22,048 nt of DNA from Candidatus Jordarchaeales archaeon (GCA_038889235.1 JAWAHN010000005.1:1-22048); one strand, 5' to 3'. Counted from the first letter of the stretch, positions 1 to 12,089 are shown. A program made the numbers and translations. Notes: generated by a model from the sequence alone, not told the origin.

Positions 1-28
1 CGGGGTTATAGGGGTTTATAAGGGGAAA
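1..28 (+). promoter_or_regulatory. Proximal end of putative CRISPR leader (truncated by window edge)
   Basis: Low-complexity GGGGTTATA-GGGGTTTATA-AGGGGAAA directly before repeat 1, with TATA-like TTTATAA at 15-21. Repeat orientation (3' ATTGAAAG) and the degenerate repeat at the far end place the leader on this side. Confidence 0.45.
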
Positions 29-1361
29 GAAACAAAAACAGTCCCCACAAATGGGGATTGAAAGGTGCACTGGCAACATTTTGGCTTATGGTGTACGCCA
101 TGTCGTGAAACAAAAACAGTCCCCACAAATGGGGATTGAAAGTTTTGCGTACCACAGCATTTTTAATTCCATGTGCTTCTCCGAAACAAAAACAGTCCCC
201 ACAAATGGGGATTGAAAGAGAAGCTTATTCGTGACGCATTCACCCCTGTACTTGTTGAGAAACAAAAACAGTCCCCACAAATGGGGATTGAAAGCATTTT
301 TTTGTGCAATCGTCCAATTTATACAGCAACGTGAAACAAAAACAGTCCCCACAAATGGGGATTGAAAGAAGTACCCCCGCTGCCCGCATCTAGGACACTC
401 GACCGGCGCGAAACAAAAACAGTCCCCACAAATGGGGATTGAAAGTGCCGAAAGCAAACCCAGTTTTTGTGTGGATCTCTGCAAGAAACAAAAACAGTCC
501 CCACAAATGGGGATTGAAAGGTAGGAAAAATTGAGGCGCCAACACTAAGCGATGCCATGAGGGCATGCGAAACAAAAACAGTCCCCACAAATGGGGATTG
601 AAAGAGTAAAATATTTTGATATTATCAATGTTTTTTTGTTTGTTTGAAACAAAAACAGTCCCCACAAATGGGGATTGAAAGTCAGCTACTACGCCGGCCT
701 TGGGAAGCCGGGGTGTGTGGAAACAAAAACAGTCCCCACAAATGGGGATTGAAAGTTCGGTTATCCTCGCGACAACCCCCCTCAGCCCCCTCCCGAAACA
801 AAAACAGTCCCCACAAATGGGGATTGAAAGTATATCAGGGGAGACTGGGTTTTCAGGATAAGGGAGTCCAAGAAACAAAAACAGTCCCCACAAATGGGGA
901 TTGAAAGTACATGAAACTGGTGGTGGTTCTGTTGGAGGTCGTTAATCCTGGAAACAAAAACAGTCCCCACAAATGGGGATTGAAAGTGAATCGTGGCCGG
1001 CTTACGCAAGCCGGCTTCAATAGTATGAAACAAAAACAGTCCCCACAAATGGGGATTGAAAGGGGTGTTTTTTGCATTCTCCTCTCTCCCGTTTCTTTCT
1101 TGAAACAAAAACAGTCCCCACAAATGGGGATTGAAAGTCGATGCTACTCTATAGCTAAGTAGGTCGTCGTCGATGTGAAACAAAAACAGTCCCCACAAAT
1201 GGGGATTGAAAGAGGTTCGCTGCCTTCGCTGCCTTAACTGCTTCCTCTGGAAACAAAAACAGTCCCCACAAATGGGGATTGAAAGAAGATGAGGGAGGAG
1301 TTGAGGGAGGCCGCTGTAAAGGAAGAGACGAGAGCAGTCTTTACAGGTGGGGGGTTGAAGG
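29..1361 (+). CRISPR. CRISPR array: 17 identical 36-nt repeats GAAACAAAAACAGTCCCCACAAATGGGGATTGAAAG, 1 degenerate terminal repeat, 17 spacers of 37-48 nt
   Basis: Perfect repeats start at 29,107,183,259,333,410,485,569,646,720,795,872,951,1027,1102,1177,1250. Degenerate copy at 1325-1361 (25/36 identical plus 1 inserted G). Hairpin TCCCCA-CAAA-TGGGGA and 8-nt 3' handle ATTGAAAG typical of Cas6-processed class 1 arrays. Confidence 0.99.
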
Positions 1362-1499
1362 AGAGTCTGTGAGATGTGTATTGGTGAGCTGAGATAGGAG
1401 GTGGTTCTATGAGTTGGGGGGTTTTGAGGTATGAAATTGGTATGTGGTAGGTTTGGGGTGTGAGATGGTTTTGGGTGGTGGGGTTTGGTGTAATTTTGG

Positions 1500-2438
1500 G
1501 TGATGTGTTTTGGTGTTGAGTTTTTTGGGGAAGGTTTTTATGTGTGGTGTTTGGGGGGTTTTGTGGTGGTTGTTTTGGGTTGGAGGTTTGTTTTTGTTTT
1601 TCCTTTTGTGTTGTTTTTTGTTTTCTTTCTTTATAGGGCGACGGTGGCTTCTTTTTATGGGAGTTTGAGGGCGCCGTTTTTTGTGTTTTTGGTTTATTTG
1701 GTTTTGTTTGTTGTTGTTAGGAGGTTTGGGGGTGTTTTTGCGCGTGTTGTGTTTGTGGCTGGTCTTGTTCATGTTTGTTTCTGTTTTTCGTTGGTGTTGA
1801 GGGCGAGTTTCGCTTCTGTTTTTGTTTCGCTTGTTCCTTTGCTTGTTTTGTTGTTTTTCGTGTTGGTGTGTTTTGTTGTTCGTTTGTGGCCTTGTGTTGG
1901 TGCTTCGGCTGTTCTTGATGGTTTTGCGGTTTTTGCTGGTTTGAAGGTTAGGTTGGTTGTTTTCTTTAAGCTTGGGGGTGTGGGGGATGTGGGGGTGCTG
2001 CTTGGGGAGGCTTGGTCTAGGCGTTTGTCTTTTACTGTTGAGAGGTTGGGGGGTGAGGTTTTTGTTTCTGTTTGTTTTGAGGGGTTTTCGTATGGGAGGG
2101 TTGAGGGGGCTGCCGTGGAGGGGGCTGGGTGGTTTGAGGAGGTGTTGAGGAGGGGTGGTTTTAGGCCTAGGAGGGTGGAGGGTTGGGTTGAGGTTGAGAG
2201 GCTTCTTTATGCTCCTTTGTCTCCTGGGTGGGAGGCTTTGTATTTTGAGCCGTGTGTTGGTGGGTGGTCTACTGTTCGCCTTTTGCCGCCTTTGGGGAGG
2301 AGGGGGAGGGCGGTGGCTGTTAGGCGCGCTTTCAAGCCGGGTGGGCTTGACCCTCACCCTCAGTTTGCGCTTAAAGCTTTTATTAGTGGTTTTCAAGATA
2401 GTTTTGAGGGGTGGCGTGTTGGAGCTGCGCGAGATTAA
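1500..2438 (+). CDS. Hypothetical integral membrane protein (about 4 N-terminal TM segments plus soluble alpha/beta C-terminal domain); start uncertain (1500, 1503 or 1542)
   Basis: 312-codon open frame whose stop overlaps the radA-like start. F/V/L/G-rich N-half, polar C-half. Composition is inflated by extreme G+T skew, so TM prediction is partly confounded. Confidence 0.6.
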   Translation: MMCFGVEFFGEGFYVWCLGGFVVVVLGWRFVFVFPFVLFFVFFLYRATVASFYGSLRAPFFVFLVYLVLFVVVRRFGGVFARVVFVAGLVHVCFCFSLVLRASFASVFVSLVPLLVLLFFVLVCFVVRLWPCVGASAVLDGFAVFAGLKVRLVVFFKLGGVGDVGVLLGEAWSRRLSFTVERLGGEVFVSVCFEGFSYGRVEGAAVEGAGWFEEVLRRGGFRPRRVEGWVEVERLLYAPLSPGWEALYFEPCVGGWSTVRLLPPLGRRGRAVAVRRAFKPGGLDPHPQFALKAFISGFQDSFEGWRVGAARD

Positions 2439-3402
2439 GGGGGTTGGACCTGAAACCCTTAGGAAGCTCATGGATGCGGGCTACACTACTGTTGAGAGTG
2501 TCGCTTTTGCCAGCCCGCAGGATCTTGCCTCTGATGCTGGGATAGGTGAGGCTACGGCTAGGAGGATAGTGGAGCAGGCGAGGAGGCTTGTCGCGAGCGG
2601 GGAGGGTAAGGGTGGGAGGCTCGTGCAGATACTTCCGGGGAGGGAGGCTAGGCGTATTCTGAGCAGCATAGAGAGGGTTACCACCGGTCTCAGGGGGCTC
2701 GACTCTATTCTCGGGGGCGGTGTCGAGACTTGTGCCATAACAGAGTTCTATGGTCCGGCTAGGGCCGGCAAAACCCAGCTCTGCCACCAGCTCTGCGTCA
2801 CGGTCCAGCTTCCGAGGGAGAGGGGTGGGCTCGAGGGTAGGGCATTGTACATAGACACTGAGAGGACGGTGAGGTATGACGCTATAGCGAGGATCGCTGA
2901 GAGGTTTGGGCTGGACCCGGACAGCGCTTGCGACAACGTTTTCTACACGTATGCCGTCAACAGTGAGGCGCTCCGGGAAACGATAAGGGGGCTCGACGGG
3001 GTGGTTAAGCAGGGCGCGGTGAAGCTGGTAGTGGTGGACTGCCTCACGGGGCACTTTAGGGCTGAGTACACTGGGAGGGAGACGCTGGCTTTGAGGCAGC
3101 AGCTCATAAACAGGATGATACACGACCTTCTCAGGCTTGCCTTAAGCTACGATCTGGCAGTTGTGGTCACAAACCAGGTTCACGCCCAGCCCGACGTTTG
3201 GGGCAAGAGCGAGGCGCCCACGGGGGGCCACGTCGTAGCCCACGGAGTAACGTACAGGGTTGGTCTCTCTGTGAAGAAGGGGAACGTTAGGATAGCGAGC
3301 TTGGTCGACGCGCCCGCTCTTCCGCCTTCATCCGCCTTCTTCGCTATAACCGACAGGGGGCTGGTGGATGTGAGCGAGGAGGAGGCTAAGAGGGGGGACT
3401 AG
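2416..3402 (+). CDS. radA: RadA/Rad51-family recombinase, divergent paralog with N-terminal HhH domain
   Basis: HhH ELREIKGVGPET, TTGLRGLDSILGGGVET, Walker A GPARAGKTQ, YIDTE, Walker B VVVD, FRAEYTGRE, TNQV, GGHVVAH, VDAP. Start placed at GTG 2416 after GAGGGG; the track extension to 2155 is low-complexity. Confidence 0.93.
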   Translation: MLELREIKGVGPETLRKLMDAGYTTVESVAFASPQDLASDAGIGEATARRIVEQARRLVASGEGKGGRLVQILPGREARRILSSIERVTTGLRGLDSILGGGVETCAITEFYGPARAGKTQLCHQLCVTVQLPRERGGLEGRALYIDTERTVRYDAIARIAERFGLDPDSACDNVFYTYAVNSEALRETIRGLDGVVKQGAVKLVVVDCLTGHFRAEYTGRETLALRQQLINRMIHDLLRLALSYDLAVVVTNQVHAQPDVWGKSEAPTGGHVVAHGVTYRVGLSVKKGNVRIASLVDAPALPPSSAFFAITDRGLVDVSEEEAKRGD

Positions 3403-3404
3403 CC

Positions 3405-3722
3405 GTGTTGAGGCCCCTTCCCAGGCGTGTTAGAAAGTTCGAGTCGGAGAGGAGGAGGCTGAAGAAGAACGTGAGGGTGGTTGCTTTGAGGGGGGAGAGG
3501 TGGATGGCCTACGCGTCTCTTCCCTGGATGCGCGAGCTCTGCGGCCACCTTTACGGGGAGAACTGCTGCGTCAAGCTGGAGGAGAAGGGGGAGGGAGTGG
3601 TCCAAGCCACGGTTTACGCCTCGACAGCCGAGCTGGCTGATGCCGTGGCCTCCGAGCTTGAAAGGGGGTTCGAGATTTTCAGGACGGTGGAAGGTTGGGA
3701 GAAGAGGAAGGGGCAGGCGTGA
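3405..3722 (+). CDS. Small hypothetical protein (105 aa)
   Basis: Fills the gap between radA-like stop (3402) and a GTGA stop/start overlap with the next gene. Host-like codon usage. Confidence 0.7.
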   Translation: MLRPLPRRVRKFESERRRLKKNVRVVALRGERWMAYASLPWMRELCGHLYGENCCVKLEEKGEGVVQATVYASTAELADAVASELERGFEIFRTVEGWEKRKGQA

Positions 3723-4315
3723 AGTTGAGGGGGAGGAGGCCGGACTACCTTCTCGTGTCGCTCGGAGCGCTGGCGGCGCTTACACTAGCGGTTGCCGCCG
3801 CACCCCAACTGGCCCCGCTCGCCGCCGCAGTGCTCCCCGCGCTGGCCGCGTACTTCGCCTGGAGGCTGCGCCCCCGGGCGCTCGGCGGTGTTGTCAGGCG
3901 CGAGTCGGCCTTCTTAGGGGATGTCGTAGCCTCGTGGGTTGGGGGGAGGTGGAGGGCTTACAGCATGTTGCAGGTTGCATCGGTCCCGGACGTCATACGT
4001 GGAGACGTGAAGCGCTTTTTCAGGATGATGTACCTTGAGGGGGTTCCATTCTTCTACCACGTGAGGCAGGGGCCTGCGTCCTCTTGGTTTGTGAAGGGCG
4101 GGCGTGAGGCTGCTGTGAGGGCTTCGGGGGTGTGGAGCACGTCCATAGTGATAGGTGTCTGGGGTGAGGGGGCGAGGTTGGACGACGCTGTGAGGGAGGC
4201 GAGGGCTAGGGCTGAGAAGGCTAAAGCATTCTTCGAGGCGTCCTTCCCCCACCACAGGGTCGAGCTGCTTAAGGGTGGAAGCCTAGTTGACGCCGTGAAG
4301 GAGTGTTTTCCGTGA
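3719..4315 (+). CDS. Hypothetical membrane-anchored protein (2 N-terminal TM segments plus alpha/beta domain)
   Basis: GTG 3719 overlaps the previous TGA. Hydrophobic hairpin LLVSLGALAALTLAVAAA / LAAAVLPALAAYFAW followed by a soluble domain. Same reading frame as the next ORF. Confidence 0.75.
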   Translation: MKLRGRRPDYLLVSLGALAALTLAVAAAPQLAPLAAAVLPALAAYFAWRLRPRALGGVVRRESAFLGDVVASWVGGRWRAYSMLQVASVPDVIRGDVKRFFRMMYLEGVPFFYHVRQGPASSWFVKGGREAAVRASGVWSTSIVIGVWGEGARLDDAVREARARAEKAKAFFEASFPHHRVELLKGGSLVDAVKECFP

Positions 4316-4324
4316 GGTGGAAGG

Positions 4325-5767
4325 TTGAAGAGGTTCCGCTTGACGGGCGACGAGCTGAGCAGGTATGTGTCATTTGAGGGCACTGTCCGCGTAGGGGTCA
4401 AGAGTAGGCCGCCGGCAGAGTTCACTCTTCCACCTCTCCCATTTGACTTCCCCGTGGGCCTGGTAGTTGAAGCCGAGAACGTGGCGCCGCACAGTGTTTT
4501 CGGGTTCACGGTGGAAAACATGGCTGAAGGAGTGCTCGTAGCTGGGGGGAGCGCGGAGGAAAGAGTCAACACGCTCCTGAGGATCCTGGGCGGCTCCTCG
4601 AAGCTGGGCTGGAATATCGCCGCCGCCACCTCAAGAAACCTGGCCCGCGTCAGGTCTGTTGCACCACAAGCCAGGGTTTATGACGGATTCCCCCTCAACC
4701 CCTTAGACCCGGAAGAGGCGGGGGGCGCGGAGTACGCTTCAGCCCTCTCACTCACGCTTCAGTCGGCCCTCGGGTTGACGGGCGGCCAGAGGCTCCTACT
4801 GGAGGACGCAATCGCAATGTGCATGGATGAGGGAGCTCTAACACTTGAGGAGCTTAAGGAGAAGGTTAGGGAGGCGGCTGTAAGCGAGCTGAGGAGCCAG
4901 GCGGAGAGAAGGGAGGCGGAGCTCCTACACAGGGAGCTGGGGTTGACCATGTCCCTTAAGGGGGCTGAAAAGCTGTCACCGGCAAACCCTTCGACGCTCC
5001 GCTGGATGGTTGAGGCGCCGACAGTCGCACTACTGTGGGAGCCTAGGCTGGCGGCGGTCGCCCAGGCTTCGCTCCTAGCTAAAGCGATGTGCTTGGAGGT
5101 TAGGGGGTTCAGCGTGCTCGTCGAACTAGACTGTTTTGCCGAGCCGGAGCCGCTCGCCGGGGTCTTTAGGAGGCTTAGGGAGAAGGAGGTCGGAGTGGTT
5201 GCTTTGTCGCCGAGCGTCTCGCACGCCGGCTCCGCCGCCAGCGTCCTCGGAAACAGGGTCATACACAGGCTTGAGGACGGCGGCGAGGCGGGGCTTGTAG
5301 GCAGGCTTATGGGGTTGAGGGAGGAGGGGGAGAGCGTGCAGAGCGGTAGGAGACACAGGCTGTACCAGGTGGAGGTGTTAAGGTTCCTCGAGTGGGGGGA
5401 GGCCGTGGTTCAGAGGAGCGACAACCCTTCCCCGGTTTTGGTAGTCTTCGAGATGGTTGAGGGGGGTGAGGCGAGGGCGGAGCCTGTTTCGGGGGCTGGA
5501 GGGGGGAGAACGCCGCTCGAAGTTGACTTCGGGAGCGACGCGGCCGACGCCTTGAAGGTAATACAGTTGGTCCACGACTTTCCGCAGATAACGCTGAGCC
5601 AGGTGGTGGGCGGCCTACCAGAGATTGGGGAGAAGGCGAGGGTTCTCGCGCTCAGGCTGGCGGATAGGGGCTACCTCGCGTCGTTCAGGGATGGGAGGGG
5701 GAGGAGGGTTTTCGTGGTGACGAGGAGGGGTGAGGATGCCTTGAGGAGGGTTAGGGGTGGGGGCTGA
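4325..5767 (+). CDS. HerA/VirB4-like (DUF87-type) ATPase-fold protein with degenerate Walker motifs and probable C-terminal wHTH
   Basis: Collinear family landmarks: GVLVAGGSAEER at the Walker A position, PLNPLDP, ALGLTGGQRLLL, RRLREKEVGVVALSPS (cf. REGRKYGVGVILATQ), NRVIHRL, LEWGEAVV. SD-like GAGGTG before TTG. Confidence 0.6.
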   Translation: MKRFRLTGDELSRYVSFEGTVRVGVKSRPPAEFTLPPLPFDFPVGLVVEAENVAPHSVFGFTVENMAEGVLVAGGSAEERVNTLLRILGGSSKLGWNIAAATSRNLARVRSVAPQARVYDGFPLNPLDPEEAGGAEYASALSLTLQSALGLTGGQRLLLEDAIAMCMDEGALTLEELKEKVREAAVSELRSQAERREAELLHRELGLTMSLKGAEKLSPANPSTLRWMVEAPTVALLWEPRLAAVAQASLLAKAMCLEVRGFSVLVELDCFAEPEPLAGVFRRLREKEVGVVALSPSVSHAGSAASVLGNRVIHRLEDGGEAGLVGRLMGLREEGESVQSGRRHRLYQVEVLRFLEWGEAVVQRSDNPSPVLVVFEMVEGGEARAEPVSGAGGGRTPLEVDFGSDAADALKVIQLVHDFPQITLSQVVGGLPEIGEKARVLALRLADRGYLASFRDGRGRRVFVVTRRGEDALRRVRGGG

Positions 5768-6572
5768 CCTTTCACCTTTCGCCTCGTGGCGCCGGGCGGG
5801 GGGCCTTGGGAGGCTTGCGGTCGACGGCATGAACGTGCTCGTCGGCCAGCTCAGGTGGTCGAGGTGGGGGTGGAGGGTGGCGGCGGTGAACACGCTTTAC
5901 AGGCTTTTGAGGCTGGTGGAGCTCGGGGCTCACCCCGTATTCGTCTACGATGGGAAGCCTCACAAGGCGAAGGTGAGGGGGGAGGGTGGGGTAGCGCTCA
6001 GGTCGGCTTTGGGGCTCGTCGTTGAGGGGGCCCGGCTCATGGGGGTCCCATGCGTCCAGGCGCCCGGGGAGGGGGAGGCGCAGGCGGCTTACATGGCTGC
6101 TATTGGAGTGGCTGACGCGGTTTTCACGTCGGACTATGATGCCTTCCTCTTTGGCTCGCCTGTCGTTGTGAGGGAGCGTGGGGGGCTGGAGGAGTGTACT
6201 CTTAGAAGCGTGTTGGAAGCTTCCGGGTTGACGCTCAGGCAACTTGTGGACGCAGCGGTCCTCTCGGGAACGGACTTCAACACGGGTGTGAAGGGGGTCG
6301 GGATAAGGAGGGCGGTGGCGCTCGTGAAGGAGCATGGGTGCCTTGAGGGGGCACTGCGAGCCCTCGGAGTAAGTGAGTGTGACGAGTTCATCGAGGCGAG
6401 GAGGCTCTTTCTAGATCCTGACGTGGCGGATGTCAAAGTGGTGTTCGTAGCCCCCCAGATTGCTGGGCTCAGAAAGCTTCTCTCCGAGCATCTCTCAGAG
6501 TCTCACGCTGAAAACTTCGTCAAAAGACTGATGAATGCTAGGACGAGGCAGTTGAGGCTGGTGGAAGATTGA
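5757..6572 (+). CDS. FEN1/XPG-family 5' structure-specific nuclease paralog with shortened arch region
   Basis: MGADL start, LAVDG, PVFVYDGKP, QAPGEGEAQAAYM, SDYDAFLFG, GTDFNTGVKGVG (H2TH/H3TH). All acidic metal-ligand positions present. 271 aa vs about 340 aa for typical archaeal FEN1. Confidence 0.92.
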   Translation: MGADLSPFASWRRAGGLGRLAVDGMNVLVGQLRWSRWGWRVAAVNTLYRLLRLVELGAHPVFVYDGKPHKAKVRGEGGVALRSALGLVVEGARLMGVPCVQAPGEGEAQAAYMAAIGVADAVFTSDYDAFLFGSPVVVRERGGLEECTLRSVLEASGLTLRQLVDAAVLSGTDFNTGVKGVGIRRAVALVKEHGCLEGALRALGVSECDEFIEARRLFLDPDVADVKVVFVAPQIAGLRKLLSEHLSESHAENFVKRLMNARTRQLRLVED

Positions 6573-7306
6573 TTGACGCGTTAGTGTTTGTGGCGGCTTT
6601 AGCTGTAGTGGTGGCGGCGGCCGCGGCTTACGTTCTTGGAAGACACGTGTTGGCGGCGTTAGTGTGGCTGAAGCTTGCAGGCTGGGCGGCTAGGGTTGTA
6701 GTACGCCACTGGAGGCTGGGGGCAACGGTGGCTGCCGCTGCATTTGCTTTCGTGCTTCTTCAGGCGCCACTTCAAAGCGCGGCCTTCGCGGTCTTACCAT
6801 CTCTCCTAGCTGGCGCGGCTGCGTGGTTGCTGCTGCACGGGAGGGGGAGGGGGGCGGCAGCTTTGGGACTACTGGCGCTCACGTCAGTTGCTGCGCCGCG
6901 TGCGGCTCAGGCTCTGGCGCCGCTGGCCGCCGTGACAACGCTAGCGGCGGTAGCCCTAGCGGTGTTGGGGCTTGCTGCTTCAACTTTAAAAGGCAGAACG
7001 CCGCGGGAGGCCTTTCAAGCCACATATACTACTCCGGGGCTGACGGGAACTGTGGTGGGGGCGGTCAAAGAGAAAGGAGGGGTTAGGGTGGTTATGGTGG
7101 CCGTTGCAGACGGCGAGACGACGAGGGTGACTATCTCTGGAACGCTGAGAGACGAGTTCGAGGAGAAAGCGGGGGGAGTGGTGGCGAGCACCGTAAACAC
7201 TACGCGCGAGGTTAAAAAAGCCTGGAAACGCTACCTTGAGAGGGGAGACCCGCAGCTTGCGGTCACCTTGCTCTTAAAAACACTTCGGGCGGGTAACGGT
7301 CACTAG
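6569..7306 (+). CDS. Hypothetical multi-pass membrane protein with small C-terminal soluble domain
   Basis: TTGA start/stop overlap with the nuclease. About 4-5 Ala/Leu/Val hydrophobic segments in the first 140 aa. Confidence 0.75.
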   Translation: MIDALVFVAALAVVVAAAAAYVLGRHVLAALVWLKLAGWAARVVVRHWRLGATVAAAAFAFVLLQAPLQSAAFAVLPSLLAGAAAWLLLHGRGRGAAALGLLALTSVAAPRAAQALAPLAAVTTLAAVALAVLGLAASTLKGRTPREAFQATYTTPGLTGTVVGAVKEKGGVRVVMVAVADGETTRVTISGTLRDEFEEKAGGVVASTVNTTREVKKAWKRYLERGDPQLAVTLLLKTLRAGNGH

Positions 7307-7333
7307 GGGCAGGTTGGACGAGGAGAACTGGAG

Positions 7334-7720
7334 GTGGGTTGCTTGGCTGTTAGGGTTTGTGTTTGCAGCCTTTGTGGCTCGTACTTCTCGTCTAAGGCTG
7401 GGAGGCCTAGGTGTCCTAGGTGTGGGGGGTGGGGGAGGGTGGTTGAGGAGGTTCTTGGAGCTGCGGCGGCGGCTCGGAGGGTGAGGGAGTTGCAGGCTTG
7501 TTCCAGCTTCCAGGAGTCTGGGGTTGTGGGGCCCGGTCGCTGTAAGCTGAGGGGGATGGGTAAGCTTAAATCCTATGTTGAGAGGCTTGGAGGAGTGGTG
7601 ACGGTGGAGGAGCTAGAGAGGGAGTTCGACGAGGAGTGGCTTAAGGTAGCTCTGGAGGAGCTTGAGGCGAGGGGTTTGGTTGTGAGGGTGGGTGGGAAGC
7701 TAGTTTTCAGGGAGGTGTAG
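7334..7720 (+). CDS. Zn-ribbon plus winged-helix protein (start may be TTG 7343)
   Basis: CSLCG...CPRCG pair. C-terminal VTVEELERE...ALEELEARGLVVRVGG pattern typical of wHTH. GGAGGTGG SD before 7343. Confidence 0.7.
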   Translation: MGCLAVRVCVCSLCGSYFSSKAGRPRCPRCGGWGRVVEEVLGAAAAARRVRELQACSSFQESGVVGPGRCKLRGMGKLKSYVERLGGVVTVEELEREFDEEWLKVALEELEARGLVVRVGGKLVFREV

Positions 7721-7724
7721 GGGG

Positions 7725-8369
7725 TTGTCGTCCCTTGGCGGGCGGACTAGGGCTGCTAGGAGTGGGGGGCTTGTGATCCACGTTTGGGGGGAGGCTGGGA
7801 GCGGGAAGACCGCTCTCGCGGCTCGGGTAGCTTCAACTCTCTCCGAGGAGGGCTTCCACGTCATATATGTCTCAGATAGGCTTCCCAGGAGTGTTTGGGG
7901 GGATGTTGAGCGGGTGACCTTTGTAGTGGCTTCCGATGAGCGCGTTATTCCGGAGCTCCCAGACACGCTGGAGAGGCTTGTGAATCCGAGAACGAGGCTG
8001 ATAGTCTTGGACACTGCTGCCTCGCTTTACGGGCATTTGCCGAGAACCGCGAAACTGAGGCTTCTCCCGCTGGTCCTCCTGAAGCTTAAAAGGCTCGCAG
8101 CTGAGAAGGGGGTCTCAACCTTACTGCTAAACGACGCAGTGCAGGCGAGCGGTGGGGTGAAGCCGTGGGAGCAGGAAGAACTAGAGAAGTACGCGGACTT
8201 AACAGTTCACCTGGCGAAGTGGGACGGCGAGCGGATAGCTAAAGGCGCCCCGCTTACAGACTACCTCCCATGGGAGGCGCTAGAAACACTGGCCGCGAAA
8301 AGCGGTGAAACAGCGAGAGGAAGCCAAACCGGAAACACGGCACTAAACGCTAGGCGAAGCCGCGGGTAA
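7725..8369 (+). CDS. RecA-superfamily P-loop ATPase, RadB/aRadC-like (no HhH domain)
   Basis: Walker A WGEAGSGKT, HVIYVS, Walker B LIVLDT, LKRLAAEKGVSTLLLND (cf. LARKYDIAVVITNQ). GGAGGTG SD at 7711-7717. Confidence 0.78.
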   Translation: MSSLGGRTRAARSGGLVIHVWGEAGSGKTALAARVASTLSEEGFHVIYVSDRLPRSVWGDVERVTFVVASDERVIPELPDTLERLVNPRTRLIVLDTAASLYGHLPRTAKLRLLPLVLLKLKRLAAEKGVSTLLLNDAVQASGGVKPWEQEELEKYADLTVHLAKWDGERIAKGAPLTDYLPWEALETLAAKSGETARGSQTGNTALNARRSRG

Positions 8370-9146: not shown

Positions 9147-9156
9147 GTGGTTTTTC

Positions 9157-10062
9157 TCAGACAGAGATGTTTAATCCAAGTTCCTTCACTATTTGTTTAT
9201 ATCTATTCCTGATGGTGACTTCGGTGCATCTTGCTACTTCTGCGATTTCCCTTTGGGCTCTTCTTTCTCCTGTTAGTATGCCGGCGATGTACAGTATGGC
9301 GGCTGCTAGTCCGGTTGGGTCTTTGCCGCTTGTTAATCCTTTGGCTTTTGCTTTTTGCAGTATTTCTAGCGCTTTTATTCTAGTTTTTGTTGAGAGGTTG
9401 AGTTCTTCTGCGAATCTTGGGATGAAGTCTGCTGGGTCTGGTCGGGGTGTCTTGAGTTGAAGCCCTCTTAGGATTAGTCTGATGCAGTGTGCTAGCTCTT
9501 TTCGGTTTACTTTTGCTGTGTGCTCGATTTCGTCTAGGGGTCGTGGGACCTTGTGCTCTCTGCAGGCTAGGTACACTGCGGCGGCTACCATGCTGTCGAT
9601 CGATCTTCCTCTTACCAGTCCGTTCTCGAGCGCCCTTCTGTATATGTATGCGGCTGTTTCTCTGATCTCTCTTGGCACTCCAATTTGGCTTGCGATTCTG
9701 TTGAGTTCGGGCATGGCTTGTGCGAGATTCCTGTCCTCCGAGTTCGTGACGCGCGTTCGCACCTGCCATTTTCTTATCCTGTATATTTGGGCTCTTCTTC
9801 TTGGCGAGATTTTGCGCCCATACGCGTCTCTATCTGATTTTGATATTGTTGTGCTTAGTCCTCTGTCTGGCATTCTTAGTGTTAGTGGTGACCCTGTTCT
9901 CGCTCTGTCTCTTTTTTCTTCTGGCGTGAATGCTCTCCATTCTGGCCCTGTGTCTATCATTGTGTTGTCTATGACTAGTCCGCACTCGCTGCATGTGGTT
10001 TCGCCCCTGACATAGTCTCTTATGATGTTTGTGCTGCCGCAGTTTGGGCATTGGGTGGTCAT
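9157..10062 (-). CDS. tfb: Transcription initiation factor IIB (TFB), full length
   Basis: Zn ribbon CPNC..CSEC, B-reader GPEWRAF, RIRKWQ, RNLAQA, two cyclin repeats, GKDPTGLAAA, TEVTIRNRYK. SD GAGGTGA upstream. Confidence 0.98.
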   Translation of the reverse strand: MTTQCPNCGSTNIIRDYVRGETTCSECGLVIDNTMIDTGPEWRAFTPEEKRDRARTGSPLTLRMPDRGLSTTISKSDRDAYGRKISPRRRAQIYRIRKWQVRTRVTNSEDRNLAQAMPELNRIASQIGVPREIRETAAYIYRRALENGLVRGRSIDSMVAAAVYLACREHKVPRPLDEIEHTAKVNRKELAHCIRLILRGLQLKTPRPDPADFIPRFAEELNLSTKTRIKALEILQKAKAKGLTSGKDPTGLAAAILYIAGILTGERRAQREIAEVARCTEVTIRNRYKQIVKELGLNISV

Positions 10063-10088
10063 GGGGTCTCACCTCTGAGGGAGTGAGG

Positions 10089-10104
10089 TTTTATAAGTTT
10101 TTCG
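10089..10104 (-). promoter_or_regulatory. BRE/TATA, proximal to tfb
   Basis: CGAAAAA-CTTATAAAA on the - strand, about 27 nt upstream of the ATG. Confidence 0.55.
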
Positions 10105-10156
10105 GTTAGTAGAAGTAGAATTGGAGTATTAGCTATTTTTAATTATCGCATGGGGG

Positions 10157-10171
10157 TTTATATATTTTTCG
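10157..10171 (-). promoter_or_regulatory. BRE/TATA, distal to tfb
   Basis: CGAAAAA-TATATAAA on the - strand, immediately after the stop of the upstream gene. Confidence 0.55.
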
Positions 10172-10564
10172 TTATGTGATGGTTGTTATTTCGACGCTTG
10201 ATACTCCTTGTATTTGTTGTATTTGCTGCATGAGTTGTTGTGGGTCTGTTTTCAGTTGTGCTTTATCTAGGTATGCTTCGTAGTAGCATTGTTTTCCTTT
10301 CTTGCAGAGTCCTGTGGTGTAAAGAAATGTGATGTTGTTTTTTACGATTATTGTTCCGAGTTCTTTTAGGAATTTTTGTGTGAGTTTGTCTATTGTTATT
10401 GTTATTTTTATTGTTTGGGGGCTTTGTGTTGGTATTATTCTTATTTCTCCTGTTGTCGCGATTGCTATAGCGTTTGTCTGCTGCAGTTGCTGTGTTAGTT
10501 CTGGTGGTATTTGTGCGGGTTGCCCAGGGTTTATTGTTATCATTTTTGCTGTTGTTAGGGGCAT
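10172..10564 (-). CDS. Hypothetical protein, possibly with a C-terminal ACT-like domain
   Basis: 130 aa, coupled (9-nt gap) to the SCP2 gene. C-half IKITITID..FLKELGTII..ITFLYTTGLC..CYYEAYLD..IQQIQGVSSVEI fits a beta-alpha-beta-beta-alpha-beta pattern. Confidence 0.6.
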   Translation of the reverse strand: MPLTTAKMITINPGQPAQIPPELTQQLQQTNAIAIATTGEIRIIPTQSPQTIKITITIDKLTQKFLKELGTIIVKNNITFLYTTGLCKKGKQCYYEAYLDKAQLKTDPQQLMQQIQQIQGVSSVEITTIT

Positions 10565-10573
10565 GTTTTCGCC

Positions 10574-10918
10574 TCAGAGCTCGTCTCGGGCTATTTCGAG
10601 TATTGTTCTGAATTTTACTGCGTCTGGTAGGGGTCCTGTTATTTTTAGGTCTCCGCTCATGTAGGCTGATGTTGCGTCTAGTTCTCCTTTTAGTATTGCT
10701 AGTATTGTTTCTTTGCTTGCTTCGAATGTGAGGTCGGGGTTTTGGTGTGTGCCCTGGTGTATTGTTAGTTTTCCGTTTTTTGTTTGGACGTAGAATGGTT
10801 GGGCTCCTTCTATGTTGAACTGGAGTATTCTGTCCCATCCTTCTATCTCTGCCTGTATGTCTTCGTTTTTTGCTGCGATTTCTTCTATTTTTTTGAGGAG
10901 TTGCTCTAGTTCTTCCAT
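10574..10918 (-). CDS. SCP2 sterol/lipid-binding domain protein
   Basis: ILQFNI..FYVQTKNGKLTIHQG...PDLTFEAS...ILKGELDATSAYMSGDLKITG is the SCP2 family signature. Confidence 0.9.
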   Translation of the reverse strand: MEELEQLLKKIEEIAAKNEDIQAEIEGWDRILQFNIEGAQPFYVQTKNGKLTIHQGTHQNPDLTFEASKETILAILKGELDATSAYMSGDLKITGPLPDAVKFRTILEIARDEL

Positions 10919-10964
10919 TTTTCATCCCTTTTTGTGGTTTTGGTTTGGGTTTTTGTGCCAGGTG

Positions 10965-10980
10965 TTATATAAGGGTTTCT
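10965..10980 (-). promoter_or_regulatory. BRE/TATA for the SCP2 transcript
   Basis: AGAAACCC-TTATATAA on the - strand, about 47 nt upstream of the SCP2 ATG. Confidence 0.5.
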
Positions 10981-11057
10981 GTGCATGTCTTTGGGTTTAC
11001 TTCAACTTGTATGGTTTTTTGTTGTGGCCGTTTTTTTGTTGCTTGCGATGTGTGTGG

Positions 11058-11071
11058 TAAAAGCTAAATAG
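11058..11071 (+). promoter_or_regulatory. Possible BRE/TATA for the gelsolin-like gene
   Basis: TAAAAG-CTAAATAG, the only A-rich patch in a G/T-rich intergenic region, about 47 nt before the ATG. Confidence 0.4.
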
Positions 11072-11117
11072 TGGTTGTTTCTAGTTTATTCTGTGGGTTT
11101 ACTGGGGCTGGTGTTCT

Positions 11118-12089
11118 ATGAGTGTGGTTGTTTATGAAGTTGACGAGGAAGGTGAGCTTGTCGGTCTTCCAGGGTTGAGCAGGGATGTTCTAGGAAGTGA
11201 GAAGGTCGTCATAGTTGTCGCCGAGAGGCAGAAGAAGATTTACCTGTGGAAGGGGAAGCGCTCCTCTGTTAAGAAGAAGTTTGTTGGAGCTAGGAAGGCT
11301 GCCGACTTGAGGGCGGAGTGGGGGCTGACTTTCAAAGTGGTGGCTGTCGACGAAGGGGAGGAGGACAGCGACTTTTTGGGGTTGATGGGCGCGAAGGCCG
11401 AGGCTCCCGTAAGGGCTCAGAGGAGGGCTGAAGCTGCTGTGGAGGTTGAGAGGGCGCGCACTGAGAAAGTCGAGGCTGTCCAGGAACGTGTGGCTGAAAA
11501 GGCGCGCGCCGAAAAAGTTGAGATTGTTCAGGAACGTGTGGCTGAAAGAGCGCGTGTCCCAGCCGAGAGGGTTGAGGTCGTTCAGGAGAGGGCGGCTGAG
11601 AGGGTTCGTGTTCAGCCTGTTGAGAGGGTTGAGGTTGTTCAGGAACGTGTGATTGGGGGGGCGCGCGCTGAAAAAGTTGAGGGGGGTTCTGCTGTTTCGG
11701 GGGTCCGTGTTCAGCCTGGTGGTGTTCAGGGTGGAGGTCAGCTTTCTGGTGATTTGAGTGAGGAGTTTGTGCTTTCTAAGTTGAGCGAGGTTGGAGTCCC
11801 TGAGGGTTATGTTAGGGAGATGGTTGTTGTCGGCCCGTGTGTTTATGTTGTGAAGGAGGTTAGGTCGAGTATTTTTGGTAGGGAGAGGGTGGAGCGTAGG
11901 TTGGAGAGGGTTGAGCCGCCTGAGGGCGTTTTTGTTGTTGAGGACTTTGTTACTAGGGTTATTGTTGATGGTGGTAGGGTTGTGGCCGTGGAGTTTTTGA
12001 GGGAGGATAAGGGTCGGGGCGTTGAGGCTTTGAAGAGCGAGATGGTTAAGCACCTTGAGGATATTATTTCCGCGTTTAGGAGCGGCTAG
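11118..12089 (+). CDS. Gelsolin-domain protein with repetitive charged linker and C-terminal extra domain (Asgard 1DGelX-like architecture)
   Basis: N-terminal ~90 aa VVIV..KKIYLWKGKRSSVKKKFVGARKAADL...VDEGEEDSDFL matches the gelsolin-repeat pattern (IYxWxG...xEGxExxxF). C-terminal domain VPEGYVREMVVVG...PPEGVF...RVIVDGGRVVAVEFL. Confidence 0.75.
   Translation: MSVVVYEVDEEGELVGLPGLSRDVLGSEKVVIVVAERQKKIYLWKGKRSSVKKKFVGARKAADLRAEWGLTFKVVAVDEGEEDSDFLGLMGAKAEAPVRAQRRAEAAVEVERARTEKVEAVQERVAEKARAEKVEIVQERVAERARVPAERVEVVQERAAERVRVQPVERVEVVQERVIGGARAEKVEGGSAVSGVRVQPGGVQGGGQLSGDLSEEFVLSKLSEVGVPEGYVREMVVVGPCVYVVKEVRSSIFGRERVERRLERVEPPEGVFVVEDFVTRVIVDGGRVVAVEFLREDKGRGVEALKSEMVKHLEDIISAFRSG
11454..11681 (+). 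repeat. Intragenic tandem repeat, about 4.5 units of 48-57 nt encoding ~ARAEKVEVVQERVAEK
   Basis: Units begin GCGCGC/GCGCGT/GTTCGT and share GAxAxxGTYGAG..GTYCAGGA. CAGGAACGTGTG occurs three times. Confidence 0.9.

What the first reader, a model, noticed from the sequence alone, without database searches (positions are those of the whole stretch)
5757..6572. Arch-less FEN1 paralog: possible GEN1-like junction resolvase
The segment from DG to QAP (5949-6066) is 39 aa vs about 70 aa in P. furiosus FEN1 as I recall it, so about 30 residues of the helical arch/cap are gone. The wedge loop and the beta-hairpin after LLFG are also shortened, and the C-terminal PIP box is degenerate (RQLRLVED vs QxxLxxWF). 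All catalytic acids are retained. Known: the arch threads free 5' flaps, and eukaryotic GEN1 lacks an ordered arch and cuts Holliday junctions. Its position beside a RadA paralog makes a recombination-intermediate substrate plausible.
Basis: partly seen in the sequence, partly recalled or inferred. Interest (0 to 1): 0.72.

Follow-up and report, generated by a model that had tools for sequence, protein, structure and literature searches.

The report
Arch-less second FEN1 of Asgard archaea
A hot-spring Asgard archaeon carries a spare copy of the DNA-trimming enzyme FEN1 that has lost the arch through which DNA ends are normally threaded, much as fungal junction-cutting GEN1 did, and it lies in a recombination gene cluster shared by many Asgard groups; whether it cuts four-way junctions is untested and is the less likely reading.

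Summary
Window 5757-6572 (+) encodes a 271-aa FEN1-family protein with all seven acids. Against the genome's own canonical FEN1 it lacks 32 residues of arch, 11 of wedge loop and 16 of beta-pin. The gene is real (independent study, dN/dS 0.13-0.19). It belongs with the divergent second Asgard copy (Fen1-2 of Feng et al. 2025). These copies sit in a conserved cluster with a second RadA, RadB-like ATPases, a Hel308-like helicase, a Walker-A-dead HerA/CedB-like protein and membrane proteins. Only this family (Jordarchaeales) lost the arch (39 aa); syntenic orthologues elsewhere keep 67-71 aa. The N-domain is collinear with Chaetomium GEN1 (40 aa) and no Hjc was found, so the GEN1 analogy is fair. 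Against it: no chromodomain, no F44/Y40 aromatic, the tree separates it from GEN1, short arches recur in non-GEN1 FENs, Hef and XPF are present, and the locus is lost or broken in some relatives. Best reading: an accessory, open-gate 5' branch/nick nuclease for recombination intermediates (about 0.5); true Holliday-junction resolvase about 0.2.

The parts
5757..6572 (+). Arch-less FEN1-family nuclease gene (Asgard Fen1-2 type), 271 aa
5949..6065 (+). D65-P103: arch remnant, 39 aa against 71; keeps K72 (K93-equivalent) and a conserved basic residue at 74; R100-equivalent and cap helix gone
   Evidence: model loop 65-77 of lower confidence
5823..5879 (+). D23, wedge helix with V29 at the Y40/F44 position, and shortened wedge loop (11 aa less; N-terminal half of the 3'-flap pocket lost)
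6069..6140 (+). Catalytic acids E105, E107, D126, D128
6171..6197 (+). Shortened beta-pin/hairpin (16 aa less than canonical; the Fen1-2 signature deletion plus 4 more)
   Evidence: PMC12680538
6234..6335 (+). H2TH DNA/K+ binding motif with D173
6549..6569 (+). Half PIP box: Q265 and L268 invariant, aromatic pair absent
4325..5767 (+). HerA/TrwB/CedB-fold protein with C-terminal wHTH-like tail; Walker A degenerate in all ten Asgard orthologues aligned; overlaps the nuclease start by 11 nt
2419..3402 (+). Second RadA (about 48% identical to the housekeeping RadA on C1), dN/dS about 0.05
1500..2438 (+). Membrane protein, orthologue of cluster gene g8
3405..3722 (+). Small conserved protein of the cluster (g10)
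3695..4315 (+). Membrane protein that precedes the HerA-like gene in several Asgard families (g11)
6569..7306 (+). Membrane protein overlapping the nuclease stop (g14, shortened here)
7334..7720 (+). Zinc-finger plus winged-helix protein (g6), moved downstream in this genome
7725..8369 (+). RadB-like ATPase (g7), moved downstream in this genome

Best explanation
An accessory, monomeric 5' structure-specific nuclease of the Asgard Fen1-2 lineage that acts on recombination intermediates rather than Okazaki fragments. Shown from sequence and model: it keeps the two-metal active site, the H2TH, the wedge helices and one gateway lysine, and has lost the cap, the 3'-flap pocket and the aromatic half of the PIP box. 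Inferred from FEN-family mechanism: it still binds two duplex arms bent at a discontinuity and cuts one base into the 5' duplex, but without a cap it need not thread a free 5' end and without the pocket it has no preference for the double flap. It should therefore nick or trim nicked, gapped, forked and D-loop DNA, including branches with blocked or continuous 5' strands, probably slowly. Inferred from context: it trims the displaced strand or branch left by the cluster's RadA and Hel308-like helicase, possibly on DNA handled at the membrane by the HerA/CedB-like and membrane proteins.
For: Intact acids, Gly2 and H2TH. Confident FEN1 fold, pLDDT 91, Z 28 to FEN1, 25 to XPG, 22.6 to human GEN1, 21 to EXO1. 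A canonical FEN1 exists on C1 for replication. Purifying selection, dN/dS 0.13-0.19. Linkage to RadA2, Hel308-like, RadB-like and HerA-like genes in families f1, f2, f7, f12, f24, f25, f26 and, more loosely, f9. The cap restricts reaction to free 5' ends and a pocket reads the 3' flap (PMC4825025). FenA works as flap endonuclease and 5' exonuclease without an arch (PMC5934675).
Against: No activity measured. In human FEN1, R100A and cap disruption lower the rate at least 2000-fold and Y40A 100-fold; this protein lacks all three features, so it may be weak unless R74 substitutes. The DNA-uptake role of the cluster rests on fold and membrane neighbours only, and its HerA-like protein has no intact Walker A. 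The helicase half of the cluster was not found in this assembly.
Confidence: 0.5

Rival explanations
1. A convergent GEN1-like Holliday-junction resolvase: two copies assemble on a four-way junction through the wedge and post-arch helices and cut two opposed strands, standing in for the missing Hjc.
For: N-domain collinear with CtGEN1, best PDB hit for residues 17-104, E 8.5e-5. Fungal GEN1s have 40-43 aa where this has 39. Same 12-13-residue basic loop. No Hjc, PF10107 or RusA found in the genome. Exposed aromatic residues in the wedge loop of five of six orthologues. The AU test does not formally reject grouping with fungal GEN1, p 0.084.
Against: No chromodomain/GEN1_C; no F44/Y40 aromatic; ML tree puts it in the archaeal group (99/90) and GEN1 with XPG (100/93); Hef (761-aa frame) and XPF are encoded and Hef is redundant with Hjc in Haloferax (PMC7776575); full-arch sister orthologues also lack a strong Hjc hit; the gene is not found in two congeners and is frameshifted in another lineage, which fits poorly with an essential resolvase.
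Confidence: 0.2
2. An attenuated or nearly inactive enzyme kept as a DNA-bending or scaffolding subunit, or a gene in slow decay within a cluster that is being lost.
For: Y40 and R100 equivalents and the cap are absent, each costly in human FEN1. The neighbouring HerA-like protein lacks Walker A. Frameshifted and decayed copies exist (L120-L122). The cluster is rearranged and apparently halved here.
Against: All seven acids, Gly2 and K72 are invariant in intact orthologues at saturated synonymous distance; dN/dS 0.13-0.19 equals that of its neighbour.
Confidence: 0.2
3. An ordinary back-up flap endonuclease for Okazaki fragment or base-excision repair.
For: Closest structures and sequences are FEN1; a short-arch FEN1 sits in a housekeeping locus of another archaeon; QxxL of the PIP box is kept.
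Against: 3'-flap pocket and PIP aromatics lost; scores 163 bits against a 352 cut-off for archaeal FEN1; a canonical copy is present; fixed linkage to recombination genes.
Confidence: 0.1

Closest known systems
Asgard Fen1-2 (Feng et al. 2025, PMC12680538)
   Same: Second, long-branched FEN1 copy beside canonical Fen1-1; beta-hairpin deletion; lies between canonical archaeal FEN1 and eukaryotic FEN1 in the tree.
   Different: Additional 31-aa arch deletion and 10-aa wedge-loop deletion against sister-family orthologues. In the main text searched, the paper does not mention GEN1 or Hjc, and the passages read give no arch loss, gene cluster or activity.
Fungal GEN1 (C. thermophilum, PDB 5cnq/6grb)
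   Same: Arch segment 40 against 39 aa, short wedge loop, basic remnant loop, same catalytic acids.
   Different: No C-terminal chromodomain, no F44 aromatic, 271 aa against about 490 for the core; separate position in the tree.
Canonical archaeal FEN1 (TIGR03674; A. fulgidus 1rxw, P. furiosus 1b43)
   Same: Fold (Z 28, rmsd 2.1-2.6 over 254-266 residues), active site, H2TH; 34% identity to the own copy.
   Different: No cap, no R100/Y40 equivalents, no 3'-flap pocket, short beta-pin, half PIP box.
Mycobacterial FenA (PMC5934675)
   Same: Stand-alone FEN without helical arch.
   Different: Bacterial Pol I-type branch with a metal-binding loop in place of the arch; shown to be a flap endonuclease and 5' exonuclease.
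Ced/Ted DNA import systems and HerA-NurA pairs
   Same: Membrane proteins beside a HerA/VirB4-fold protein; 5' nuclease gene overlapping a HerA-like gene.
   Different: ATPase motif degenerate; only a weak CedD match (32 bits, cut-off 600) in an orthologue; no CedA match; nuclease is FEN-type, not NurA; cluster adds RadA, RadB-like, Hel308-like genes.

Membership tests
FEN1/Rad2-XPG 5' nuclease superfamily | XPG-N and XPG-I domains with seven active-site carboxylates and N-terminal Gly2 | tested here: met
FEN1/Rad2-XPG 5' nuclease superfamily | H2TH motif and overall fold | tested here: met
   (Z 28, rmsd 2.1-2.3)
Canonical archaeal FEN1 | TIGR03674 cut-off | tested here: not met
   163 bits against 352
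Canonical archaeal FEN1 | Helical arch and cap (about 71 aa from DG to AP) | tested here: not met
   39 aa
Canonical archaeal FEN1 | Gateway K93, R100 and wedge Y40 equivalents | tested here: not met
   K72 kept; V79 and V29 at the other two positions
Canonical archaeal FEN1 | 3'-flap pocket and full PIP box | tested here: not met
   wedge loop and C-terminal pocket motif altered; QxxL without aromatics
Asgard Fen1-2 | Second copy beside a canonical Fen1-1 in an Asgard genome | tested here: met
Asgard Fen1-2 | Loss of the beta-hairpin relative to Fen1-1 | tested here: met
Asgard Fen1-2 | Branches outside canonical FEN1, towards eukaryotic FEN1 | tested here: met
   canonical clade 99/99 and 99/98 excludes it; AU tests on 166 columns have low power
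Asgard Fen1-2 | Listed among the authors' own Fen1-2 sequences | not testable with these tools
   supplement not held
GEN1/Yen1 | Arch reduced, cap helix missing | tested here: met
GEN1/Yen1 | C-terminal chromodomain (GEN1_C) | tested here: not met
   protein ends at 271 aa; no such Pfam hit, while fungal GEN1 hits carry PF18380
GEN1/Yen1 | Common descent with GEN1 | tested here: inconclusive
   ML tree separates them; constrained tree 39.9 log units worse but p-AU 0.084
GEN1/Yen1 | Dimeric, symmetric cleavage of four-way junctions | not testable with these tools
   needs biochemistry
Ced DNA import system (cluster) | Active CedB/CedD ATPase and CedA membrane protein | tested here: not met
   Walker A degenerate in ten orthologues; CedD 32 bits against 600; no CedA family hit

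The most novel reading that the evidence does not exclude
One Asgard family has independently remodelled its Fen1-2 into a chromodomain-free GEN1-like Holliday-junction resolvase that serves a pan-Asgard, membrane-linked recombination (possibly DNA-uptake) cluster in genomes where Hjc was not found. It would be the first FEN-fold resolvase in a prokaryote and a natural replay of the FEN1-to-GEN1 step.
Probability: 0.2. Interest if true: 0.8.

Novelty: new variant of a known kind. Interest (0 to 1): 0.52.

Why it matters
Asgard Fen1-2 has been proposed as the sister of eukaryotic FEN1, yet no role is known for it. Two things here bear on that. First, Fen1-2 genes sit in a conserved recombination and membrane gene cluster across at least seven Asgard families, which points to a non-replicative job for the lineage nearest eukaryotic FEN1; I found no description of this cluster in the papers searched. 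Second, Jordarchaeales supply a matched pair of orthologues, with arch (sister family) and without (this family), both small and at least this one from a hot spring. That makes an open question directly testable: is loss of the arch enough to turn a flap endonuclease into a branch or junction nuclease, or is GEN1's chromodomain needed? A negative result would still be informative, but the finding would then be a lineage-specific simplification of a known paralogue.

Tried and rejected
Homodimer prediction: no verdict, score under the mark; not used as evidence. Single-sequence fold of the full-arch sister orthologue: pLDDT 35, unusable. Search for longer fused forms: three unrelated hits, weak test. 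AU tests: with 166 columns neither grouping with fungal GEN1 (p 0.084) nor with the own canonical FEN1 (p 0.063) is rejected, although both are about 39 log units worse; grouping with sister-family orthologues is 8 worse (p 0.33). The exact sister of this family is unresolved: the trees join it to f7, possibly by long branches. CtGEN1 is not among the 50 rows shown by the structure searches; that is not evidence of difference. A metatranscriptome run holds contigs of a related strain over several cluster genes but only thin cover of the nuclease: expression not shown. Assembly artefact and pseudogene readings rejected. Recent duplication of the own FEN1 considered unlikely: 34% identity and synteny with distant orthologues. 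Arch loss driven by Hjc loss considered and not supported. Searches of earlier scan findings in relatives and by words gave nothing. Paper searches for Asgard plus GEN1, CedB, RadA-paralogue operons found no description of this protein or cluster; the library is incomplete.

Full report
Observation. Window 5757-6572 (+) is a 271-aa ORF that starts GTG-GGG (Met-Gly) and overlaps its upstream and downstream neighbours by 11 and 4 nt. It hits XPG_I, XPG_N and the H2TH domain and archaeal FEN1 below the family cut-off (163 against 352 bits). Close homologues are few; one is named from Candidatus Jordarchaeales. The genome has a separate canonical FEN1 at C1:802784-803821. Against that copy (34% identity) the protein lacks 11 residues in the wedge loop, 32 in the arch and 16 in the beta-pin. 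The segment D65-P103 (5949-6065) is 39 aa against 71. All seven acids, Gly2 and the K93-equivalent K72 are kept. The Y40-equivalent is V29, the R100-equivalent position is V79, both parts of the 3'-flap pocket are altered, and the PIP box keeps Q and L only. The model is confident (pLDDT 91) and shows a 13-residue loop (65-77) running straight into the post-arch helix. It superposes best on FEN1 (Z 28), then XPG (25), human GEN1 (22.6) and EXO1 (21).

The gene is real. A contig from an independent hot-spring study spans the region with 8 substitutions and no indel in the gene. Orthologues from two genera have the same 39-aa length. dN/dS among them is 0.13-0.19 where synonymous sites are not saturated.

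What family it belongs to. Feng et al. 2025 (PMC12680538) describe a divergent second Asgard copy, Fen1-2, which lacks a beta-hairpin (except a Loki group) and branches near eukaryotic FEN1. A search of 400 Asgard genomes found second copies in many families. In the tree, canonical FEN1s, including the own copy, form a clade (99/99) that excludes the window protein and the second copies of families f1, f2, f7, f9, f12, f24, f25 and f26. All of these share the hairpin deletion except f9, as the paper reports for its Loki group; the names of these families are withheld, so that match is my inference. Within this set only the window's family has the short arch; the others measured have 67-71 aa. 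The whole set has also lost the R100 position, and mostly the Y40 position and the 3'-flap pocket motif. So the lineage had left double-flap processing before this family deleted the cap.

Context. In a same-order assembly the gene lies in a run of 14 co-oriented genes: roadblock protein, small GTPase, Hel308-like helicase with a SWIM-like finger, zinc-finger/wHTH protein, RadB-like ATPase, membrane protein, second RadA, small protein, membrane protein, HerA-like protein, the nuclease, membrane protein. The sister family and families f7, f24, f25 and f26 keep the nuclease within about 15 kb of the helicase and/or the HerA-like gene, often with RadA2, RadB-like and XPD-like genes; f12 and f9 keep it beside a second RadA or the roadblock/GTPase pair. 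The HerA-like protein has a HerA/TrwB/CedB fold and a degenerate Walker A in all ten orthologues aligned. In the window the cluster is rearranged, and orthologues of its helicase half were not found in this 95%-complete assembly. Two congeners (73% and 92% complete) gave no hit for the nuclease paralogue, the HerA-like gene or the helicase orthologue. One lineage has the nuclease and the HerA-like gene frameshifted, another a decayed orphan. The cluster is therefore old, selected where intact, and dispensable.

The GEN1 question. For: residues 17-104 match C. thermophilum GEN1 better than any FEN1, in one collinear stretch with a 40-aa arch segment and an equally short wedge loop. CtGEN1 has 12 residues where FEN1 has a 39-residue arch (PMC4695337). 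A profile of the N-half pulls fungal GEN1s with 40-43 aa. Hjc, PF10107 and RusA were not found in the genome. Against: the collinear match follows from shared deletions, and once indel columns are removed the tree puts the protein among archaeal FENs (99/90) and GEN1 with XPG (100/93); the AU test disfavours but does not reject the alternative (p 0.084). GEN1's chromodomain, which adds DNA contacts and is needed for efficient cleavage (PMC5039027), is absent, as is the F44/Y40 aromatic. Short arches arose repeatedly: 43-50 aa in virus-like FENs, 50 aa in an archaeal FEN1 next to rpl21e and TBP, none in FenA, a proven flap endonuclease (PMC5934675). The genome encodes Hef and XPF, and Hef is the known alternative to Hjc in Haloferax (PMC7776575). 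Full-arch sister orthologues equally lack a strong Hjc hit.

Mechanism. Shown: intact metal site, H2TH, wedge helices, K72; no cap, no 3'-flap pocket, half PIP box; linkage to recombination genes. From established FEN biochemistry: the cap limits reaction to free 5' ends and the pocket reads the 3' flap (PMC4825025). Inferred: the enzyme binds bent two-arm DNA and cuts one base into the 5' duplex without threading, so nicks, forks, D-loops and blocked flaps are its likely substrates; the conserved basic residue at 74 may stand in for R100. Inferred and weakest: it trims branches made by RadA2 and the Hel308-like helicase, perhaps on DNA brought in at the membrane. Because R100A, cap disruption and Y40A each cost human FEN1 two to three orders of magnitude, low activity is a real possibility.

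Verdict. A new structural variant of a known paralogue (Asgard Fen1-2), converging on fungal GEN1 architecture in its N-domain but not a GEN1 by domain content. Open-gate branch/nick nuclease 0.5, junction resolvase 0.2, attenuated or scaffold 0.2, back-up FEN1 0.1.

Noticed in passing
window 1500-8369; L036, L022, L024+L040, L033+L041, L096, L082-L085: The nuclease is one gene of a cluster conserved across several Asgard families (second RadA, RadB-like ATPases, Hel308-like helicase with SWIM-like finger, XPD-like helicase in some, Walker-A-dead HerA-like protein, several membrane proteins, roadblock plus small GTPase). No description found in the papers searched; the cluster may be of more interest than the nuclease alone.
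   Followed up: partly
window 4325-5767: The HerA/CedB-like protein lacks the Walker A lysine in all ten Asgard orthologues aligned, so the loss is ancient; in f7 and f25 the protein is 770-825 aa with predicted membrane segments.
   Followed up: partly
window 27-1362: CRISPR array of 18 repeats (about 36 nt, spacing 73-84) with a degenerate last repeat, directly upstream of the cluster remnant; it occupies the place where relatives have the helicase half.
   Followed up: partly
window 1290-2450 and 9150-12000: Strong G+T bias on the + strand regardless of gene direction (GC skew up to 0.5, AT skew to -0.54); the 1500-2438 ORF is still a true orthologue (52% identity) of cluster gene g8.
   Followed up: no
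L120:1276-2090, L121, L122:3778-4451: Broken copies of the same nuclease: frameshift within the arch remnant together with a frameshifted HerA-like neighbour; another copy is a decayed orphan.
   Followed up: yes
G000 and order-level relatives: No strong Hjc match in any of 11 Jordarchaeales genomes searched, nor in many other Asgard genomes, although reviews call Hjc universal in archaea; Hef and XPF are present in the own genome.
   Followed up: partly
L124:6001-6906 (P0234); L123:5001-5903 (P0176): Independent short-arch FEN1s (50 aa): one in an archaeal housekeeping locus beside rpl21e and TBP, one on a contig with large-DNA-virus-like genes.
   Followed up: partly
window 11118-12089: Gelsolin-repeat protein with a repetitive linker (weak Pfam hit), a typical Asgard eukaryotic-signature protein.
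   Followed up: no
G035 (three FEN1-family copies), G016 (L030, two copies 4 kb apart): Some Asgard genomes carry further FEN1 copies that fall inside the canonical clade, distinct from the cluster-linked type.
   Followed up: no
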